DNA of 40,712 nt, from contig JALEND010000020.1 in the NCBI GenBank assembly GCA_022768045.1, positions 1 to 40,712 on the forward strand. The letters are read 5' to 3'. This DNA is from Mycoplasmatota bacterium (GTDB lineage Bacteria; Bacillota_I; Bacilli_A; RF39; UBA660). Both the position numbers and the translations under genes were made by a program. The notes beneath the pieces are model-generated. The model was not told the origin of the DNA and searched no databases. It worked only from the letters and a program-made list of their open reading frames with translations. Of this stretch, positions 480 through 21,415 are shown piece after piece (within the stretch, counting starts at the first letter, position 1; the number at the start of each line of letters is the position of its first letter).

Positions 480-1454
480 ATGAATATAACAATACTAGGT
501 GCAGGAGCTTATGCTTTAGGTCTTGCATTAAGATTTAATAAAAATAAAAATAAAATAATTATATGGTCAGCAGTTAAAAGTGAAATTGATACATTGACTA
601 AGACAAGAATGAATGAAAAGGCATTAAAAGGTGTTAAGATGCCTAATAATTTTATTTATACAGAAAACATAGAAAAAGCACTAGATGGAAGCGATATAGT
701 TGTAATAGCTGTTGCAACTAAGTTTTTATCTAGTGTATGTGATACAATAAAGCCTTATGTAAAAGATAAGCATATTATAATTGCTTCTAAGGGAATTGAA
801 CAAGAAACTTATAATTTTGCAAGTAATATAATTAAAGGTAAGTTAAAAACAAAGAAGTTAGCTACTATATCAGGTCCTTCTTTTGCAAAAGATATGGCAA
901 CAGATTCACTAATTGGATTATCACTTGCAACAACTAACAATAAAACAAAAGAGATGGTAATAAAAGCACTTTCATCTGACACTTTAAAAATAAGACCTAC
1001 TAAGGATTTTTTAGGTGTTGAGTTATGCGGTACAATGAAAAATGTAATAGCAGTTGCAGCAGGTATGTTAGATGGTATGAAAGCTAATGAATCTACAAAG
1101 GCAATGTTTTTAACAGAAAGTATTAATGATACAAGAAAACTAATAAAAAAATTAGGCGGTAATGAAAAAACAATAATGTCATATGCAGGGTTTGGAGATA
1201 TACTTTTAACTTGTACATCTACTTCTTCAAGAAATTATTCTTATGGTAAGCTAATAGGAAGTAATGCACCTAAAGATGAATTAGATGAATATTTAAGTAA
1301 TAATACGGTAGAAGGTGTTTATACTCTTGAATCTATATATGGTTTAATTAAAAGTAAGAAAGTTAAGATGCCATTTATAGATTTTGTTTATGATGTTGTT
1401 TTTAACTATCGTAGTTCAAGTGAAATATTAACATTTTTAAATGAAAAAGAATAG
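480..1454 (+). CDS. gpsA: NAD(P)H-dependent glycerol-3-phosphate dehydrogenase
   Basis: ILGAGAYA Rossmann motif, SKGIE, SGPSFA, KNVIAVAAG, GDILLTC..SRN, VEG; AAGGAG RBS at 465-470 favours ATG 480. Confidence 0.97.
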   Translation: MNITILGAGAYALGLALRFNKNKNKIIIWSAVKSEIDTLTKTRMNEKALKGVKMPNNFIYTENIEKALDGSDIVVIAVATKFLSSVCDTIKPYVKDKHIIIASKGIEQETYNFASNIIKGKLKTKKLATISGPSFAKDMATDSLIGLSLATTNNKTKEMVIKALSSDTLKIRPTKDFLGVELCGTMKNVIAVAAGMLDGMKANESTKAMFLTESINDTRKLIKKLGGNEKTIMSYAGFGDILLTCTSTSSRNYSYGKLIGSNAPKDELDEYLSNNTVEGVYTLESIYGLIKSKKVKMPFIDFVYDVVFNYRSSSEILTFLNEKE

Positions 1455-1455
1455 T

Positions 1456-1489
1456 AAGAAAGTCTCTTTTTAGAGGCTTTTCTTTTTTT
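1456..1489 (+). terminator. Rho-independent terminator after gpsA
   Basis: AAGAAAGTCTCT-ttt-AGAGGCTTTTCT hairpin followed by a T run. Confidence 0.75.
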
Positions 1490-1498
1490 GTAAGATTA

Positions 1499-1505
1499 TG
1501 TCGAA
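1499..1505 (+). promoter_or_regulatory. Spo0A box upstream of the spoIIA operon
   Basis: Perfect TGTCGAA (consensus TGNCGAA) about 55 nt upstream of spoIIAA, a canonical Spo0A target. Confidence 0.65.
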
Positions 1506-1561
1506 TCTATTTTCTTTGTTTTTAATAAGTGATTAAATATATTTACTGGATGGTGATTTAT

Positions 1562-1879
1562 ATGTTTGATGCACAAATGGAATTTAGAAAAGGAATACTA
1601 TTCATTAGATTAACTGGAGAATTAAATAATAAAACAATAAATGATTTTAGAATGAAAGTTAAGGAGGTGGTTATAAGAGCAGGAATTAGATACCTTGTTT
1701 TAAATGTTAATAATTTAAATAGTGTAACAAATGAGGGAGTAAAAGAAATTAAAAGTTTGAAGAAGGTTATGAAAAAGCTTGATGGAGAGTTTTACTTGTT
1801 TGGAGGAAGTATAAAAAAATTAAAAGGGTTAGTTAATTTAGAAAATGAATTAAACGTATTTGAAAGGGTTGTGATATAG
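1562..1879 (+). CDS. spoIIAA: STAS-domain anti-sigma-F antagonist, degenerate
   Basis: ILFIRLTGELN..T STAS N-terminus, about 105 aa, directly upstream of sigF; GGTGA RBS. DSSG phosphorylation motif replaced by TNEG. Confidence 0.8.
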   Translation: MFDAQMEFRKGILFIRLTGELNNKTINDFRMKVKEVVIRAGIRYLVLNVNNLNSVTNEGVKEIKSLKKVMKKLDGEFYLFGGSIKKLKGLVNLENELNVFERVVI

Positions 1880-2551
1880 TTGCAAAATGCTATAATTCCA
1901 GAAAACATAGTAGATGAAAATAAAAATTTAATTTATTCTATTTGTTATAAACATAAAAATTATTGTGATATAGATGATTTATATCAAGCTGGTTTGTTAG
2001 GCCTTATGGATGCATATAAGAACTTTGATCCTAGTAAAAATGTTAAGTTTTCTACTTATGCCTTTAATTATATTTTAGGAGAAATTACTAAGTATATAAG
2101 AGAAAATAATAATATAAAAGTAAGTAAGGATATGTTAAGGTTAGGTAAAAAAATTAATGAGTATATAGATAAGTTTTATGAATTAAAGGGCTATAAACCA
2201 TCTATTAAAGATATTAGTTTAATGCTTAATATAAAAGAATCTAAGGTTATAGAAGCACTTGATTTATGCCTTAAAGTTAAGAGTTTAGATGAGATTATAA
2301 TAAGTGATGGAAAAGACGTAACATTACTTGATGTAACACCAGATAATGATAAATTATCTTGTGATGTTATGCTTGATTTAAAAGATGCTCTTATGATCTT
2401 ATCTGATGAAGAAAGAGACTTTATAATAGATAGATTTTATAATGACTTAACACAAAGTGAGGTTGCAGAAAAACTAGGTGTTAATCAGGTATATGTATCT
2501 AGAATGGAAAAAAGGGTTTTAAAAAAGATGAAAAATAAGATGGTAGCATAA
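1880..2551 (+). CDS. sigF: Forespore sigma factor sigma-F
   Basis: DDLYQAG..GL, FSTYA...ILGEI..YIR, IKVSK, TQSEVAEKLGVNQVYVSRMEK (SigF-type TQSEVA/QV rather than SigG TQMEVA/QA); lies between spoIIAA and spoVA; TTG start. Confidence 0.88.
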   Translation: MQNAIIPENIVDENKNLIYSICYKHKNYCDIDDLYQAGLLGLMDAYKNFDPSKNVKFSTYAFNYILGEITKYIRENNNIKVSKDMLRLGKKINEYIDKFYELKGYKPSIKDISLMLNIKESKVIEALDLCLKVKSLDEIIISDGKDVTLLDVTPDNDKLSCDVMLDLKDALMILSDEERDFIIDRFYNDLTQSEVAEKLGVNQVYVSRMEKRVLKKMKNKMVA

Positions 2552-2570
2552 AATTGCTATCATTTTTTTT
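2540..2570 (+). terminator. Terminator after sigF
   Basis: ATGGTAGCA-taaaat-TGCTATCAT followed by a T run. Confidence 0.8.
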
Positions 2571-2579
2571 ATAAAAAAA

Positions 2580-2608
2580 GTATAATTTAAAAATTTTAAC
2601 TAAAACTA
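2580..2608 (+). promoter_or_regulatory. Putative sigma-G/F promoter of spoVA
   Basis: GTATA-N17-AAAACTA matches the sigma-G consensus GHATA-N17/18-MAWAMTA; spoVA is sigma-G dependent in Bacillus. Confidence 0.5.
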
Positions 2609-2625
2609 TTACTGGTGATAATAAT

Positions 2626-3066
2626 ATGGAAAAAGAAGAGTATAAAAAGCTCATTAGTACTATTGTTCCAAAGGAAAATAAACTAAAAAATGGATTAATA
2701 GCTTTTATAATAGGTGGATTAATAGGTTTGTTAGCTGAAATATTAGTTGTTATTTTTCAAAGTAAGTTTAATTTATCTTACAAAGAGTCAACTAGCGTTA
2801 TGATGGTTATATTAATATTTTTTGCTAGTTTATTTACCGCAATGGGTTTTTTTGATAATTTAGTTAGTTTTGCTAAAGCAGGGTTAATAGTTCCAATAAC
2901 TGGTTTTGCTCATGCAATGACATCAAGTATAATTGATTATAAAAAAGAAGGATTTGTAACTGGTATTGGTTCTAATGCATTTAAGCTATCAGGTAGTGTT
3001 ATTTTATATGGGGTTGTATCTGCTTACGTATTTGGTATAGTAAGATATTTATTTTTTGGAGGTTAG
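2626..3066 (+). CDS. spoVAC: Stage V sporulation protein AC
   Basis: AFIIGGLIG, AKAGLIVPITGFAHAM, EGFVTGIGSNAFKLSGSVILYG. Confidence 0.95.
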   Translation: MEKEEYKKLISTIVPKENKLKNGLIAFIIGGLIGLLAEILVVIFQSKFNLSYKESTSVMMVILIFFASLFTAMGFFDNLVSFAKAGLIVPITGFAHAMTSSIIDYKKEGFVTGIGSNAFKLSGSVILYGVVSAYVFGIVRYLFFGG

Positions 3067-3069
3067 AAT

Positions 3070-4065
3070 ATGACTATTAAGTTTAATAACATTTATTTAG
3101 GTGAATCATCATCAGTTGCATGTCAAGATGAATATAAGGGGAGTTTTGGAAAACTATATGACATAGTATATGATGATTATTATGCAGGTGAAAAGACTTT
3201 TGAAAGAGCAGAGGTAAAAATGATTAAGGATGTAGTTTTTTTAACTCTTAAAAAAGCTAGTAAGAAAATGGATGATATAGATGTTATAATTGGTGCAGAT
3301 TTATTAAATCAGATAGCAGCTAACTCTTATTCAGCACTTTCTTTTGATAAATCTTTTATAGGTGTTTATAGTGCTTGTGCTTCTTTTTGTGAAGAGTTAA
3401 TTGTTGCATCTTTTATTTTAAAGAATAATAAAATTAATAACGTACTAGTTAATACATCGTCTCATAACATGACCGCAGAAAGACAGTTTAGAAATCCGGT
3501 AGAGTATGGAGCTCCTAAACCTAAGAGATCTACTTATACTGCAACAGGAGCTACATCATTTTTAGTATCAGTTGAAAGATCTAATATAAAAGTGTCTAGT
3601 GCTTGTATTGGAAGTGTTGTTGATATGGGAATAGATGATGCTAATGACATGGGTTCTGTAATGGCACCTGCAGCAGCTAAAACGTTATATGATTATTTAT
3701 CAGATACTAATACAAAACCTAGTGATTATGATCTTATATTAACTGGTGATTTAGGAGTTTATGGTAAAGAGATATTAATTAAGTATATGAAAGAGTTTTA
3801 TAATATAGATGTATCTGAAAAATTAGAGGATGCAGGTAGCATTTTATATGATAGAACTTTACAGAAAAAAGTAAATGCTGGAGCATCAGGACCAGTTACA
3901 ATAGCACTAGTTACAAAGAATTATGTAATTAATAAACTAAGTAATAATGAGTTTAAAAAAGTCCTTTTAATAGCAACAGGAGCGTTAATGAGTCCTACTA
4001 TGAATAATCAAAAACTATCTATTCCATCTATTGCACACTTAGTATGTTTGGAGAATGTATTATGA
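3070..4065 (+). CDS. spoVAD: Stage V sporulation protein AD (DPA-binding)
   Basis: DLLNQ, TSSH..AERQFRNPVEYG, MGSVMAPAA, YDLILTGDLG, GALMSP..SIPSIAH. Confidence 0.97.
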   Translation: MTIKFNNIYLGESSSVACQDEYKGSFGKLYDIVYDDYYAGEKTFERAEVKMIKDVVFLTLKKASKKMDDIDVIIGADLLNQIAANSYSALSFDKSFIGVYSACASFCEELIVASFILKNNKINNVLVNTSSHNMTAERQFRNPVEYGAPKPKRSTYTATGATSFLVSVERSNIKVSSACIGSVVDMGIDDANDMGSVMAPAAAKTLYDYLSDTNTKPSDYDLILTGDLGVYGKEILIKYMKEFYNIDVSEKLEDAGSILYDRTLQKKVNAGASGPVTIALVTKNYVINKLSNNEFKKVLLIATGALMSPTMNNQKLSIPSIAHLVCLENVL

Positions 4066-4412
4066 TATTTTTATATTCATTTATGTTTGCAGGAACACTT
4101 TGTTTGATAGGACAAATAATACTTGATAATACTAAGTTAACCCCAGGACATGTAACAACTATGTTTGTAATTTTTGGATGCTTTTTAGACTCATTTGGAA
4201 TATATGATAAATTTATTAAATGGTTTGGTGCAGGAACACTTGTTCCAATAACTAGCTTTGGTCATTCACTTATCCATGGAGCTTTAGATAAAGCTCATGA
4301 ATCAGGTATACTTGGACTTTTAAGTGGTATGTTTAACTTAACATCAACCGGTATAGTAGCAGCAATTGTATTTGGTTTTATATTTTCACTTTTATTTAAG
4401 GCAAAAGACTAG
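4062..4412 (+). CDS. spoVAE: Stage V sporulation protein AE (SpoVAEb)
   Basis: LCLIGQIILD..KLTPGHV, GAGTLVPITSFGHSL; ATGA overlap with the spoVAD stop. Confidence 0.95.
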   Translation: MIFLYSFMFAGTLCLIGQIILDNTKLTPGHVTTMFVIFGCFLDSFGIYDKFIKWFGAGTLVPITSFGHSLIHGALDKAHESGILGLLSGMFNLTSTGIVAAIVFGFIFSLLFKAKD

Positions 4413-4426
4413 AATTTTGCCTTTTT
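4399..4426 (+). terminator. Terminator after spoVAE
   Basis: AGGCAAAA-gactagaa-TTTTGCCT followed by a T run. Confidence 0.7.
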
Positions 4427-4460
4427 ATAATGTATTATAAATATAAGAAGGAGAAGTTTT

Positions 4461-6110
4461 ATGGTAGATAAATTAAGTCCGTTAGATTATGGTATGAAAG
4501 ATTATATAAAATTTTATTTTTGTCTTAGTTTGGCAAATGGAAACTTATATAATAAGTTGATTAACCTTTATGGCAGAAAACTTGATTTTGAAAAAGAAAT
4601 ATGTATTACAGATAGTGAAGCTTTATATATAAAACAAGGTTTTAATCAAATAAAGAAGATTTATGATTATGTTGATATAGAAAATGTTGATTATCTTAAA
4701 ATATTTGATCAAAAAGTATTATATATAGAATTTATTAATTTTAGAAGAAATAATGAGAATCCTGATATGTCTGAATTTTTAAAATATGAATTGTTGAAAA
4801 AAGCAAGATATATTAAACAAACAACATATGGAAATTTAAAAAATTATTTCAAGTATTTTAAAATAAATGATATATTAAAAGCAAAAGAATACCTTGATTT
4901 TAGATATAAAAGAATGTTTGATGAGAAGTTTTTTAGTGATGGGACAAAGAGCTTTTTATATAATAATTTAAGTACTGATGAGCAAAAAATAATTATTGGC
5001 ATATATAAAGGACTTATAAAAATAAATAGTATAACAAAAGAAGAAAAAGCGGCAGGAAAAGTAGTAGATACTGATAAAGAAAATAACTTAGATGGCATAA
5101 AAGGAGAAGATAGCATGGCAAGAAAAAGAAATGATAAAAGATCTTTAATGAAAAGTCTAGATATAAAAAGTGAAAAGGAGTTGGAAGAATTGGTTGATAA
5201 ATTACCTTCAAAAAATAAAGAGATAATGTGTTATATGTATGGTATATTAATGGAAGAAAAAAGTATGGAATGGATATTAAATAAACTTGGTATATCAAAA
5301 GGAACTGTTTATAAAAAGATAAGTGAATCTAAAGAAATGTTAAAGGATATTAAAGAAGGAAAAGATATATCAAAAGAAAGTAAAGAACCTAGTAAAGTAC
5401 CGGAAAAAAACGAAGCAAATAATAATCAGGTAGTAAAAGAAGAAAAAGTTAAAAAATCAAGAGGAGCAGCTAAGAAAACACCAGAAACAATATCTGACTT
5501 AGCAAAAAAGTATGATGTTTCACAAGAATTTGTTTATAGTGTAATTTCTAATCTTTCGTCTGATAAGAAAATAAAGGTAGCTAAACTATACTTTATAGAG
5601 GGTATGCCTCAAGCAACTATTAAGGAAAGCACAAACATAAGTCCTTCTTACATATCAGTTGTTATAAAACAAGTTCATGAAAGTATTAAAAAAGAAAAAG
5701 AAAAGATGGAAAACAATAATTCAAATGATGAAAAAGAGACAATTAAAAAAGAAGAAACAAAAAAAGAAGAACATAACAAACCTAAGACTTTAGATGAAGA
5801 TAAAAATATAAATAACATTAATGATAAACTTTTATCTTACATAGCATTAAGTATTAATGATATATTATATGATGATAATGAGTTAAAGAAATTAAAGCAA
5901 GAAAAATTTATGTTATTTACAATGTTATCATTAATTAAAAAGCATAATTTTACATCATCTGAATTACAAGATACACTTTTATTATCAGAAGAAGAAATGA
6001 AATTATTATATGAGGAAGCTGCTGATTTAGGTATTAAGAAGATTAATAAATACATGGAAGATAATAAAAAAGAGATTACAAAAAGATTAATAGATAATAA
6101 AAGAAACTAG
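4461..6110 (+). CDS. Hypothetical protein with several sigma70 region-4-like HTH segments
   Basis: 549 aa, AAGGAG RBS; LPSKNKEIM..YG...KSMEWILNKLGISKGTVYKKISES and LYFIEGMPQATIKESTNISPSYIS resemble region 4; no sigma region 2 seen. Confidence 0.7.
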   Translation: MVDKLSPLDYGMKDYIKFYFCLSLANGNLYNKLINLYGRKLDFEKEICITDSEALYIKQGFNQIKKIYDYVDIENVDYLKIFDQKVLYIEFINFRRNNENPDMSEFLKYELLKKARYIKQTTYGNLKNYFKYFKINDILKAKEYLDFRYKRMFDEKFFSDGTKSFLYNNLSTDEQKIIIGIYKGLIKINSITKEEKAAGKVVDTDKENNLDGIKGEDSMARKRNDKRSLMKSLDIKSEKELEELVDKLPSKNKEIMCYMYGILMEEKSMEWILNKLGISKGTVYKKISESKEMLKDIKEGKDISKESKEPSKVPEKNEANNNQVVKEEKVKKSRGAAKKTPETISDLAKKYDVSQEFVYSVISNLSSDKKIKVAKLYFIEGMPQATIKESTNISPSYISVVIKQVHESIKKEKEKMENNNSNDEKETIKKEETKKEEHNKPKTLDEDKNINNINDKLLSYIALSINDILYDDNELKKLKQEKFMLFTMLSLIKKHNFTSSELQDTLLLSEEEMKLLYEEAADLGIKKINKYMEDNKKEITKRLIDNKRN

Positions 6111-14447: not shown

Positions 14448-15368
14448 ATGTATAAGAAGTTAAGTAAAAACGCAACAATAGGGGTTGTTGGTGTTTCTAA
14501 TAGTATTAAAAGAGAAAACAAGGAAAGTATTTTTTTAAAAGCTAAAAAGTTATTTGAAGATCACGGATACAAGCTAAAATTTAGTGATAATGTTTTCATA
14601 GACTATTATGGAATGGCAGGAAGTGCAAAACAAAAGGCAGAAGAATTAAATAATATGTTTAAAGATCCTAGTATAGATTTAATAATGTGCTTAGATGGAG
14701 GAGATTCTTGTAATACAATAATTGATTATTTAGATTATTAATTAATTAAGAATAATCCTAAACCAATTGTAGGATATAGTGACGTAACTGTTTTATTAGA
14801 AACAATAAATAAAATGACAGGAATAATTACGTTTCATGGACCAGCATTTTTAAGTTTTGGAGAAGATTATGGAGAAAAGTGCATGGAAAACTTTGTAAAT
14901 ACATTTGAAAAGGGTTTATTTGATGACTTTTTAAACAGTAATATAAAAGAAGTAAGAAAGGGAAATTCTAAAGGTAAACTAATTGGTACTAACTTAGAGT
15001 GTTCAATATATATAATAGGTACTAAGTATTTTCCTGATGTAAACAATAACATATTATTAGTAGAAAGATATATTACAACACCTAGTGAAACTTATAATCA
15101 TTTTTATCAATTAAAGCAAAAGGGTATTTTAGATAAAATAAGTGGTTTATTAATAGGTTATAATTATTCTTTTGAATCAGAAAAAAGTGGCAGAAAAACA
15201 GATATTAAGATGGAGGATATTGCAAAAGAAGTATCTAAAGATTATGATTTTCCTATATATAAGTGTTAAACTTTTGGTCATGAAATGGCAAACGTTGTAA
15301 TTCCGGTAGGAGCTACTGCAGAGATAATTGATAATAAGTTAAAAATAACAGAAAAAATATTCTTTTAA
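14448..15368 (+). pseudogene. S66 LD-carboxypeptidase (MccF/LdcA family) interrupted by two in-frame TAA codons
   Basis: Single frame: ...IDYLDY*LIKNNPKPIVGYSDVT...FHGP...GKLIGTNL...LLVE...YKC*TFGHEMANVVIPVG...; stops at 14739-14741 and 15267-15269. Confidence 0.88.
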
Positions 15369-20701: not shown

Positions 20702-21403
20702 TTAATCTTTTTTATTTCTTATAAATTCTCTTAGTATCTTTGTTAAAGCTCTTTTTTCAATTCTAGATACATAGCTTCTTGAAATGTTAAATTCCTTTGC
20801 AATTTCTTTTTGAGTGTATATTTTTGTATTATATAAACCATATCTTTTAATTATAATTTGTTTTTCTCTTTCAGTTAATATATTTACGTATTCATATAAT
20901 AACAAGACTTTATCTTTTAAATCTATATCACTTATATAATCAGGATCTGGTGTTTTTAAAATATCCATTATAGATATTTCATTTCCTTCTTTATCAAATC
21001 CAACAGATTCATTTATACTTATGTTTTTAGCGTTTTTCTTATCACTTCTAAAATGCATTAATATTTCATTTTCAATACATCTTGCAGCATACGTAGTTAA
21101 TTTAGCTCCATTTTTATCTGAGAATGTATCAATTGCTTTTATAAGTCCAATGGTACCTATACTAATTAAATCATCTATGTCTACTTTTTTAGAATCATAC
21201 TTTTTAACTATGTGTGCAACTAATCTTAAGTTATGTTCTATAAGTTTGTTTCTAGCTTCTTTCTCATTGTTTTTCATCTTTATTACTAATTTATTTTCCT
21301 CTTCTTTTGAAATTGGATCTGGAAATGTTTTATTTCCATAAGATGCACAACCAATTAACGCACCTTTTATTATTTCACTTATAATATTAATAAACAAAAT
21401 CAT
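20702..21403 (-). CDS. sigK: Pro-sigma-K, uninterrupted (no skin element)
   Basis: FPDP...EE, LIEHNLRLVAHIVKKY, DDLISIGTIGLIKAI, KLTTYAARCIENEILMHFR, TQKEIAK..ISRSYVSRIEKRAL; hydrophobic pro-sequence; start may be TTG 21397. Confidence 0.96.
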   Translation of the reverse strand: MILFINIISEIIKGALIGCASYGNKTFPDPISKEEENKLVIKMKNNEKEARNKLIEHNLRLVAHIVKKYDSKKVDIDDLISIGTIGLIKAIDTFSDKNGAKLTTYAARCIENEILMHFRSDKKNAKNISINESVGFDKEGNEISIMDILKTPDPDYISDIDLKDKVLLLYEYVNILTEREKQIIIKRYGLYNTKIYTQKEIAKEFNISRSYVSRIEKRALTKILREFIRNKKD

Positions 21404-21415
21404 CACTCCTAGTAA

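What the first reader, a model, noticed from the sequence alone, without database searches (positions are those of the whole stretch)
1562..2551. spoIIA operon without spoIIAB, and a SpoIIAA that has lost its phospho-serine: a rewired sigma-F switch
Seen: the spoIIAA stop (1877-1879) abuts the sigF TTG (1880), leaving no room for spoIIAB. The motif aligning to B. subtilis NLEDLSFMDSSGL reads NVNNLNSVTNEGV (TNEG at 1727-1738), so the Ser58 equivalent is Asn and the next residue is Glu. SigF is also N-terminally short (223 aa). Known: spoIIAA-spoIIAB-sigF and the SpoIIAB/SpoIIE phosphorylation cycle on Ser58 are near-universal in endospore formers and confine sigma-F activity to the forespore. 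Inference: loss of both kinase and target site, with a Spo0A box, spoVA, sigK and spoIVF retained, points to a phosphorylation-independent way to control sigma-F. The STAS protein might act directly on sigma-F or as a ligand sensor.
Basis: partly seen in the sequence, partly recalled or inferred. Interest (0 to 1): 0.8.

Follow-up and report, generated by a model that had tools for sequence, protein, structure and literature searches.

The report
Sigma-F operon without its kinase switch
A whole order of tiny-genome, AT-rich gut bacteria that still carry the core spore-formation genes has lost the kinase and phosphatase that normally switch on the first spore-specific sigma factor, yet keeps a non-phosphorylatable helper protein fused in an operon with that sigma factor, so this textbook developmental switch must work differently there.

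Summary
A 105-aa SpoIIAA-like STAS gene (1562-1879) ends at TAG, directly followed by the TTG start of a 223-aa SigF-type sigma (1880-2551). The position of the phospho-serine is Asn.

No SpoIIAB or SpoIIE-type phosphatase was found in this 1.07-Mb genome (90.8% complete). None was found in any of 121 genomes sampled from its order. In the rest of the class, SpoIIAB occurs in exactly the 51 genomes that have SpoIVA.

The locus is not decaying. Spo0A, SpoIIR, SpoIIGA, SigE, SigG, SigK, SpoIVA and SpoVAC/D/E are present. STAS is under purifying selection (median dN/dS 0.16). A TGTCGAA Spo0A box lies about 60 nt upstream in 40 of 42 orthologous loci. The STAS stop and sigF start abut or overlap in all 47 parsed loci.

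So sigma-F control here is independent of phosphorylation. What STAS now does is not shown. I favour a direct action on sigma-F, but five sporulation-competent relatives have dropped STAS altogether.

A 2024 paper lists spoIIAB and spoIIE as reduced or absent in order RF39. My searches found no description of the operon anatomy or the phospho-site loss. Earlier notes of this scan report the same thing on other genomes.

The parts
1458..1481 (+). Terminator-like hairpin after gpsA; marks the upstream boundary of the STAS-sigF unit
   Evidence: 2 terminator-like sites found in 1400-2700, against 0.1 expected from shuffles
1499..1505 (+). Spo0A-box heptamer TGTCGAA, 63 nt upstream of the STAS start codon
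   Evidence: the only copy in the 40.7-kb window.: a 0A-box heptamer within 130 nt upstream in 40 of 42 orthologous loci, at -58 to -63 in most
1548..1556 (+). Shine-Dalgarno-like GGATGGTGA ahead of ATG 1562
   Evidence: read from the sequence. Orthologues have GGAGGA at the same place
1562..1879 (+). SpoIIAA-derived STAS protein, 105 aa, without a phosphorylatable serine
   Evidence: Pfam STAS 35.4 bits; TIGR02886 33.8 against cut-off 114.75.: model pLDDT 87.1.: best PDB match is SpoIIAA 1th8_B, TM 0.84.: present in 36 of 37 other genus genomes.: median dN/dS 0.16
1721..1738 (+). SVTNEG, the stretch that aligns to FMDSSG of canonical SpoIIAA; the phospho-Ser position is N57 (1730-1732)
   Evidence: That column is S or T in only 5 of 42 family rows, against S in 4 of 4 canonical references
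1862..1868 (+). GAAAGGG Shine-Dalgarno-like site for sigF, inside the 3' end of the STAS gene (translational coupling)
   Evidence: read from the sequence. The STAS-stop to sigF-start gap is -4 to +15 nt in all 47 parsed loci
1880..2551 (+). sigF: SigF-type sporulation sigma factor, 223 aa, TTG start
   Evidence: regions 2/3/4; TIGR02885 171.2 bits; SigG model 153.4.: a separate SigG elsewhere scores 334.7 bits, and canonical in-class sigF genes score 197 and 152 on the same SigF model. Synteny with spoVAC/AD/AE
2537..2566 (+). Terminator-like hairpin overlapping the sigF stop codon; downstream boundary of the bicistronic unit
2626..4412 (+). spoVAC (2626-3066), spoVAD (3070-4065) and spoVAE (4044-4412), in the canonical position after the spoIIA operon
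   Evidence: The same order is seen in the canonical in-class loci L014 and L016

Best explanation
This is the kinase-less form of the spoIIA operon, and it is fixed in an entire order of about 1-Mb, 25% GC gut bacteria.

Shown:
- An ancestral spoIIAA-spoIIAB-sigF operon has lost spoIIAB cleanly, leaving the STAS stop codon abutting the sigF start.
- The SpoIIE-type phosphatase and the phospho-serine of the STAS protein are gone as well.
- The two-gene unit keeps a Spo0A box and sits between two terminator-like hairpins.
- STAS is kept under purifying selection, mostly in genomes that also keep SpoIVA.

Inferred:
- Sigma-F is made when Spo0A~P rises. Its activity is set without any phosphorylation cycle.
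- The co-translated STAS protein most likely acts directly and stoichiometrically on sigma-F or its holoenzyme, either as a weak anti-sigma or holding factor or as a stabiliser. It would tune sigma-F rather than be indispensable, because a few sporulation-competent genera have dropped it.

My odds: about 0.85 that the canonical switch is truly absent and sigma-F control is phosphorylation-independent; about 0.35 that STAS binds sigma-F directly.
For: Absence of the switch:
- Own genome.
- SpoIIAB over cut-off in 0 of 121 order genomes from 73 genera, all >=90% complete. The best score is 50.7 bits against a cut-off of 135. The 150 best listed matches all lie in frames of >=254 aa; 192 weaker matches were not listed.
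- PF07228 in 0 of 121.

The method does detect these genes where they exist. In a 201-genome class sample (1 of the 201 could not be scored in the SpoIVA search), SpoIIAB was found in 51 genomes. These are exactly the 51 non-family genomes with SpoIVA, and 49 of the 51 also have PF07228.

Sporulation is retained; SpoIVA in 102 of 121 order genomes.

STAS is orthologous to SpoIIAA:
- It holds the same operon position ahead of sigF and spoVAC.
- It is 33% identical to the canonical SpoIIAA of G030, within the 29-36% range it shows to other genera of its own family.
- Its best structural match is SpoIIAA 1th8_B, TM 0.84.

STAS is functional:
- Median dN/dS 0.16 over 266 usable of 276 pairs; model pLDDT 87.
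- Present in 88 of 102 SpoIVA-positive genomes but only 5 of 19 SpoIVA-negative ones, and 2 of those 5 carry stop codons.

Link to sigma-F:
- Gene gap of -4 to +15 nt in all 47 parsed loci.
- Conserved 0A box in 40 of 42 loci.
Against: - No physical evidence links STAS to sigma-F.
- The tight gene coupling is inherited from the ancestral operon (canonical loci also overlap), so it is not specific evidence of an interaction.
- Fourteen of 102 SpoIVA-positive genomes have no detectable STAS. In 5 that I checked (3 genera), sigF stands alone with unrelated genes upstream. STAS is therefore dispensable in some lineages.
- I know of no precedent for a STAS protein binding a sigma factor directly (recalled, not searched systematically).
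- dS is near saturation (median 1.05) in a 25% GC genome, so the dN/dS value is rough.
- All genomes are metagenome bins and spore formation has never been observed in this lineage.
Confidence: 0.55

Rival explanations
1. An unrecognised anti-sigma-F that is not a GHKL kinase has replaced SpoIIAB somewhere else in the genome. STAS still works as its antagonist but is regulated without phosphorylation, for example by a ligand, redox state or proteolysis.
For: The logic of a partner switch needs an anti-sigma, and STAS keeps the SpoIIAA fold. It also keeps the conserved loop elements (Ile/Val, Asp in 16 of 18 other genera, Gly in 41 of 42 rows) around the former phospho-site. Non-phosphorylated antagonists exist in the mycobacterial SigF system (recalled; the UsfX-RsfB structure 8ih8 appears among the fold matches).
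Against: No candidate gene was found. Nothing is conserved between or next to STAS and sigF. Genera without STAS still keep sigF and SpoIVA. I ran no phylogenetic profiling for a co-varying gene.
Confidence: 0.2
2. STAS has taken on a job unrelated to sigma-F activity, such as binding another protein or a small molecule as other STAS domains do. It stays in the operon only for historical reasons and for sporulation-timed expression.
For: STAS domains serve many partners. MlaB-MlaF complexes and SulP-type transporter STAS domains are among the fold matches. STAS is dispensable for keeping sigF in 5 checked genomes. Intact STAS persists in 2 SpoIVA-negative genomes, G075 and G122. In G075 no sigma lies beside it within the 3.9 kb fetched.
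Against: STAS presence tracks SpoIVA (88 of 102 against 5 of 19). The gene is never found separated from sigF in SpoIVA-positive genomes among the 49 loci examined.
Confidence: 0.15
3. STAS is a vestige, kept only as an upstream reading frame that delivers ribosomes to the weak TTG/overlapping start of sigF.
For: The stop-start overlap is conserved. sigF uses TTG here.
Against: Protein-level constraint is strong: median dN/dS 0.16, a confident STAS fold, and 9 nearly invariant plus 2 invariant columns across 46 rows. A mere leader frame would not conserve a fold.
Confidence: 0.05
4. Artefact or decay: spoIIAB and spoIIE exist but fell into assembly gaps, or the lineage no longer sporulates and the locus is eroding.
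For: The genome is a bin of 80 contigs, 90.8% complete.
Against: The same absence is seen in 121 independently assembled genomes of 73 genera, some in 4-10 contigs. There is no room in the operon in 47 parsed loci. The core sporulation genes are intact, and the 0A box is conserved.
Confidence: 0.03

Closest known systems
spoIIA operon of Bacillus/Geobacillus (spoIIAA-spoIIAB-sigF) with the SpoIIE phosphatase; structures 1TH8/1TID (SpoIIAA-SpoIIAB)
   Same: Same operon position (after a Spo0A box, before spoVAC/AD/AE). Same STAS fold (TM 0.84 to 1th8_B). Same sigma family. Translationally coupled genes.
   Different: No SpoIIAB, no SpoIIE-type PP2C, and no phosphorylatable Ser (Asn here; the column is variable across the family). 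The partner-switching and phosphorylation cycle therefore cannot operate.
Canonical small-genome relatives in the same class, e.g. G030 (0.9 Mb), locus L014: spoIIAA-spoIIAB-sigF-spoVAC
   Same: Reduced genome. The SpoIIAA N-terminus is nearly the same (MEFRKGILFVR...) and overall identity is 33%. The sigma scores similarly on the SigF model (197 against 171 bits).
   Different: G030 keeps SpoIIAB (190 bits), FMDSSG and a SpoIIE domain. Genome reduction alone therefore does not force the loss.
Gene-content survey of RF39/RFN20/ML615J-28 (Microb Genom 2024, PMC10868615; passages read)
   Same: [quoted passage not shown] An earlier scan note (e1-1468381) places the same phenomenon in RF39.
   Different: It is a KEGG presence/absence statement only. 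'spoIIAA' and 'sigF' occur 0 times in its main text. It gives no operon anatomy, phospho-site analysis or selection analysis. Its supplements were not seen.
Mycobacterial SigF partner switch (RsfA/RsfB-UsfX/RsbW-SigF; 8ih8)
   Same: STAS antagonists of a SigF-type sigma, one of which is regulated without phosphorylation (recalled). 8ih8_B is a fold match with TM 0.82.
   Different: The mycobacterial system still has the anti-sigma (UsfX/RsbW). Here no such protein was found.
MlaB-MlaF (a STAS protein bound to an ABC ATPase)
   Same: It shows that a small STAS protein can be re-used with a partner that is not an anti-sigma kinase (fold matches 6xgz and 7ch7).
   Different: Unrelated pathway. 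TM is only 0.53-0.58, and there is no ABC ATPase next to this gene.

Membership tests
SpoIIAA (anti-sigma F factor antagonist, TIGR02886) | STAS fold | tested here: met
   Pfam STAS 35.4 bits against 22.6. Model pLDDT 87.1. Best PDB hits are SpoIIAA chains, 1th8_B TM 0.84.
SpoIIAA (anti-sigma F factor antagonist, TIGR02886) | Score over the curated equivalog cut-off | tested here: not met
   33.8 bits against a cut-off of 114.75.
SpoIIAA (anti-sigma F factor antagonist, TIGR02886) | First gene of the operon that encodes sigma-F, upstream of spoVA | tested here: met
   Same position as in the canonical in-class loci.
SpoIIAA (anti-sigma F factor antagonist, TIGR02886) | Phosphorylatable Ser in the DSSG loop | tested here: not met
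   The window has TNEG. The column is S or T in 5 of 42 family rows against 4 of 4 references.
SpoIIAA/SpoIIAB/SpoIIE partner-switching module | SpoIIAB anti-sigma serine kinase in the genome | tested here: not met
   (own genome). 0 of 121 over cut-off in the order. The positive control found 51 of 51 SpoIVA-positive genomes outside the family.
SpoIIAA/SpoIIAB/SpoIIE partner-switching module | SpoIIE-type PP2C phosphatase in the genome | tested here: not met
   PF07228: no candidate at E<=10 in the own genome and 0 of 121 in the order. The control found it in 49 of 51 sporulation-gene-positive class genomes. Other PP2C families (PF00481, PF13672) were not searched.
Sporulation sigma factor SigF (TIGR02885) | Sigma-70 regions 2, 3 and 4, with the best family match SigF/SigG | tested here: met
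   region 2 at 55.8, region 3 at 26.3, region 4 at 48.8 bits; NF004052 174.5; TIGR02885 171.2, above the SigG model at 153.4.
Sporulation sigma factor SigF (TIGR02885) | Score over the curated equivalog cut-off | tested here: inconclusive
   171.2 against 321.45. However, sigF genes of same-class genomes that sit in canonical spoIIAA-AB-sigF operons also score only 197 and 152.
Sporulation sigma factor SigF (TIGR02885) | Distinct from SigG; the full set of sporulation sigmas is present | tested here: met
   SigG on C61 (334.7 bits) and SigE on C76 (298 bits). SigK in the window at 20702-21406 (303 bits).
Sporulation sigma factor SigF (TIGR02885) | Forespore-specific activity; directs spoIIR, spoIIQ and sigG transcription | not testable with these tools
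   SpoIIR is encoded (160.4 bits, over cut-off), but no expression data bear on it (one search was uninformative).

The most novel reading that the evidence does not exclude
In this order the SpoIIAA-derived STAS protein has become a kinase-independent, direct regulator of sigma-F: a two-protein STAS-sigma switch. Alternatively, it antagonises a wholly new, non-GHKL anti-sigma-F. Either way, forespore-specific activation of the first sporulation sigma factor would be achieved by a mechanism not seen in any studied endospore former.
Probability: 0.3. Interest if true: 0.85.

Novelty: new variant of a known kind. Interest (0 to 1): 0.64.

Why it matters
[quoted passage not shown] Their phosphorylation cycle is the textbook explanation of how asymmetric division triggers cell-specific transcription.

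Here a large uncultured gut lineage keeps Spo0A, all four sporulation sigmas, SpoIIR, SpoIIGA, SpoIVA and SpoVA, yet lacks the kinase, the phosphatase and the phospho-site. Two readings follow. Either compartment-specific sigma-F activation can be built in another way, or strict compartmentalisation is dispensable in a minimal sporulation programme.

This offers a natural 'minimal' system for asking what the switch is really needed for. It also offers a small, tractable protein pair (105 + 223 aa) that can be tested in B. subtilis or in vitro. Finally, it warns that sporulation-signature gene lists which require spoIIAB or spoIIE will misclassify this lineage.

Tried and rejected
- Complex prediction of STAS with sigma-F (alignments A1 and A2): score 0.00, below the mark, and controls were not run. 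It gives no verdict either way and is not used as evidence.
- Naming the taxon. The search for related loci returned one 98%-identical locus whose record title names a genus of another phylum, probably a mislabelled bin, plus one unrelated hit. RF39 is suggested only by an earlier scan note and by the match to the gene pattern described in PMC10868615. It is not verified.
- Phylum-level sample. All 300 scored genomes were labelled 'same class', so it added no outgroup. It did repeat 0 of 5 for the family and gave 26 SpoIIAB-positive genomes elsewhere.
- Expression. 19 runs hold at least half of the stretch's sampled words, mostly labelled pig gut metagenome, and one may be the source. The only true RNA-Seq run (X20, share 0.10) gave short contig pieces inside spoVAD and nothing usable on STAS or sigF. 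This is no evidence for or against transcription.
- Replacement gene upstream of stand-alone sigF. I looked for homologues of the ORFs that precede sigF in STAS-less genera (302, 376, 422 and 222 aa). None has a homologue in this genome by phmmer at E<=1e-3. None has a Pfam domain except a Fic domain in one. No candidate emerged.
- A 'novel conserved C-terminus' of STAS. The near-invariant NLENELxVFERVVI of the genus first looked new. In the wider alignment it aligns with the ordinary C-terminal helix of SpoIIAA, so I dropped the idea.
- Short sigma-F N-terminus as part of the rewiring. Rejected, because canonical in-class sigF genes are 207-241 aa.
- Count of TGTCGAA in the window. One copy against 0.86 expected, so the count alone is not significant. 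The argument rests on positional conservation.

Full report
**The sequence.** The window is contig C24 of a 1,070,451-base bin with 80 contigs, 90.8% complete, and 25.6% GC. After gpsA (471-1454) and a terminator-like hairpin (1458-1481) comes a 105-aa ORF. It starts at ATG 1562 and its TAG stop is at 1877-1879. The next base begins a TTG-initiated 223-aa ORF (1880-2551). A second terminator-like hairpin (2537-2566) overlaps that ORF's stop codon. Two such sites were found where 0.1 were expected. spoVAC, spoVAD and spoVAE follow.

The first ORF is a STAS domain: Pfam 35.4 bits, but only 33.8 bits on the SpoIIAA equivalog, whose cut-off is 114.75. The second has sigma-70 regions 2, 3 and 4 and matches SigF/SigG models best (174.5 and 171.2 bits; the SigG model gives 153.4).

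**Is the sigma really sigma-F?**
- The genome has separate SigG (334.7 bits), SigE (298 bits) and SigK (303 bits) genes.
- Four same-class genomes with textbook spoIIAA-spoIIAB-sigF operons, followed by spoVAC in two of them, were recovered. Two of their sigF genes were scored; they reach only 197 and 152 bits on the SigF model. The low score is therefore a trait of the class, not of this gene.
- Those four sigF genes are 207-241 aa long.

**The phospho-site.** All four reference SpoIIAA proteins read FMDSSG; the window reads SVTNEG. The column of the first Ser was tallied in alignment A1:
- Own genus, 24 rows: N6 K9 D1 S3 Y2 E2 V1.
- 18 other genera of the family: I2 V1 N3 L6 S1 E2 M1 T1 K1.
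- Four references: S4.

The flanking Gly is kept in 41 of 42 rows. The Asp is kept in 16 of 18 other genera but is Ser, Thr or Lys in this genus.

The protein is still a SpoIIAA in fold and descent. The AlphaFold model has pLDDT 87.1. Its best PDB matches are SpoIIAA chains of the SpoIIAA-SpoIIAB complexes (1th8_B, TM 0.84, 23% identity; 27 matches at E<=0.001). It is 33% identical to the canonical SpoIIAA of G030, within the 29-36% range it shows to other genera of its own family.

**Is the kinase hidden elsewhere?**
- In the own genome, TIGR01925 and PF13581 at E<=10 hit only two frames of 425 and 412 aa (44.1 and 29.9 bits against a cut-off of 135). The 425-aa frame is a classical sensor kinase behind an OmpR-type regulator.
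- An unfiltered hmmsearch with a profile of the four in-class SpoIIAB proteins, over all 2,805 stop-to-stop frames of >=60 aa, found the same two frames. Next came a 620-aa frame at E 0.019, and nothing else below E 0.26.
- PF07228 (SpoIIE-type PP2C) gave no candidate at E<=10.
- Only one STAS gene exists in the genome.

**Clade-wide picture.**
- None of 24 other species of the genus has SpoIIAB over cut-off.
- In a sample of 121 genomes of the order (73 genera, all >=90% complete), SpoIIAB is over cut-off in 0 of 121. At E<=1e-3, 110 of 121 have matches, but the best is 50.7 bits. All 150 listed matches lie in frames of >=254 aa and cover only the ATPase half of the model. A further 192 weaker matches were not listed.
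- PF07228 is found in 0 of 121.

The control is clean. In a 201-genome sample of the class (1 of the 201 could not be scored in the SpoIVA search), SpoIIAB was found in 51 genomes, 50 of them over cut-off. SpoIVA was found in 67. Sixteen of those belong to this family, and the other 51 are exactly the 51 SpoIIAB-positive handles. Of the 51, 49 also have PF07228, against 0 of 21 for this family. Within this class, therefore, SpoIIAB and SpoIVA travel together everywhere except in this order. One of the SpoIIAB-positive genomes (G030) is only 0.9 Mb, so small genome size does not explain the loss.

**Not a decaying locus.**
- The genome encodes Spo0A (255 bits), SpoIIR (160.4) and SpoIVA (688.8), all over cut-off. 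SpoIIGA is present but cut by a contig end.
- An M23 plus M50 pair after mreC/mreD fits spoIVFA/FB.
- SpoIVA is present in 102 of 121 order genomes.
- STAS orthologues occur in 36 of 37 other genus genomes, intact, at 56-97% identity.
- Pairwise dN/dS has a median of 0.16 (266 usable of 276 pairs). dS is about 1, so this figure is rough.

With a profile of the family (A1), STAS is found in 93 of 121 order genomes. Cross-tabulated by hand:

| | STAS+ | STAS- |
|---|---|---|
| SpoIVA+ | 88 | 14 |
| SpoIVA- | 5 | 14 |

Of the 5 SpoIVA-negative, STAS-positive genomes, 2 carry in-frame stops, 1 is partial and 2 are intact.

**Operon anatomy is conserved.**
- STAS is immediately followed by sigF in 30 of 30 genus loci and in 19 of 20 loci from other genera. 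The exception, G075, is SpoIVA-negative.
- In the 29 + 18 loci where both ORFs were parsed, the distance from the STAS stop to the sigF start is -4 to +15 nt. Many show ATGA-type overlaps.
- A Spo0A-box heptamer lies within 130 nt upstream in 40 of 42 loci, nearly always TGTCGAA at -58 to -63. The two misses are one base off. In the window it is the only copy in 40.7 kb.

**Evidence against an essential STAS-sigma-F partnership.**
- Among the 14 SpoIVA-positive genomes without STAS I examined 5, from genera g41, g79 and g47. Each has a SigF-type gene (126-185 bits on TIGR02885 for the two tested) plus a SigG. No STAS lies upstream; unrelated ORFs sit there instead.
- The other 9 may be real losses or bin gaps.

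**Mechanism.**
- Shown: the SpoIIAB/SpoIIE phosphorylation cycle cannot exist here, and the operon is still a discrete, Spo0A-box-bearing, tightly coupled two-gene unit under selection.
- Inferred: sigma-F is produced on Spo0A activation and is controlled without phosphorylation.
- Commitment: I take as most likely that the co-translated STAS acts directly on sigma-F or its holoenzyme as a modulator that helps but is not indispensable.
- Rivals: an unknown non-GHKL anti-sigma that STAS still antagonises; a STAS function unrelated to sigma-F; and a purely vestigial leader ORF, which is unlikely given the fold and the dN/dS value.

**Literature and earlier notes.**
- Galperin et al. [quoted passage not shown] It does not mention spoIIAA or sigF in its main text, and its supplements were not available to me.
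- Three searches found no paper describing a spoIIAA-sigF operon without spoIIAB or a non-phosphorylatable SpoIIAA in such bacteria: (77 papers held at least 3 of the 4 terms, and none of the 15 listed held 'RF39'; 0 papers).
- Four earlier notes of this scan report the same arrangement on other genomes, one naming RF39. I re-tested the claims here on this genome and its order. I could not verify the order's name.

**Verdict.** This is a lineage-wide, kinase-less variant of a known module. Its absence pattern is partly in print, but its anatomy and mechanism are not.

Noticed in passing
L094 (G090:C2:72300-77000), about 700-3540; also contig ends in G024, G064, G067, G079, G086, G110: In a relative, spoIVA is split after about codon 120 by a roughly 2.8-kb insert. 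The insert carries a Fic/DOC protein (243 aa) and a large serine recombinase (514 aa; Resolvase + Recombinase + Zn-ribbon). This looks like a skin-like intervening element. In at least six other genomes of the order, SpoIVA breaks at the same model position (121-125) with both halves at contig ends. No Rfam match, so it is not a group II intron. spoIVA is intact in the window's own genome.
   Followed up: partly
L082, L083, L084, L085, L088 (G090, G144, G155, G143, G081): Three genera that keep SpoIVA, SigF and SigG have no STAS gene at all, and sigF stands alone. In genus g41 it follows spoVAE and an unknown 302-376-aa ORF that has no Pfam domain and no homologue in the window's genome.
   Followed up: partly
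window 4461-6110 (+): A 549-aa Lys/Glu-rich ORF directly after spoVAE carries several weak sigma-70 region 4 / HTH-like stretches (Sigma70_r4 26.7 bits; YlxM-like). It matches no family over cut-off.
   Followed up: no
window 14448-14741 and 14814-15269 (+): An LD-carboxypeptidase (Peptidase_S66) appears split into two ORFs: the N-terminal domain (97 aa) and the C-terminal part (151 aa). This could be a frameshift, a pseudogene or an assembly error.
   Followed up: no
G056:C44:2456-2779, G077:C15:10389-10637, G093:C27:3704-3940, G130:C22:11615-11923, G133:C4:115157-115384, G074:C3:58983-59159: Some genomes of the order hold a second, weaker STAS-like copy (33-55 bits on profile A1). Four of these have an in-frame stop codon, so they may be duplicated and decaying copies.
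   Followed up: no
L060 (record CAVAWS010000081.1): A locus 98% identical to the window's sigF carries a record title naming an actinobacterial genus. For a 25% GC sporulation operon this is almost certainly a mislabelled metagenome bin.
   Followed up: no
window 1400-4500: Near-identical DNA is held by 19 public runs (at least half of the sampled words). Most are labelled pig gut metagenome, the rows come from 14 studies, and one sample may be the source.
   Followed up: partly
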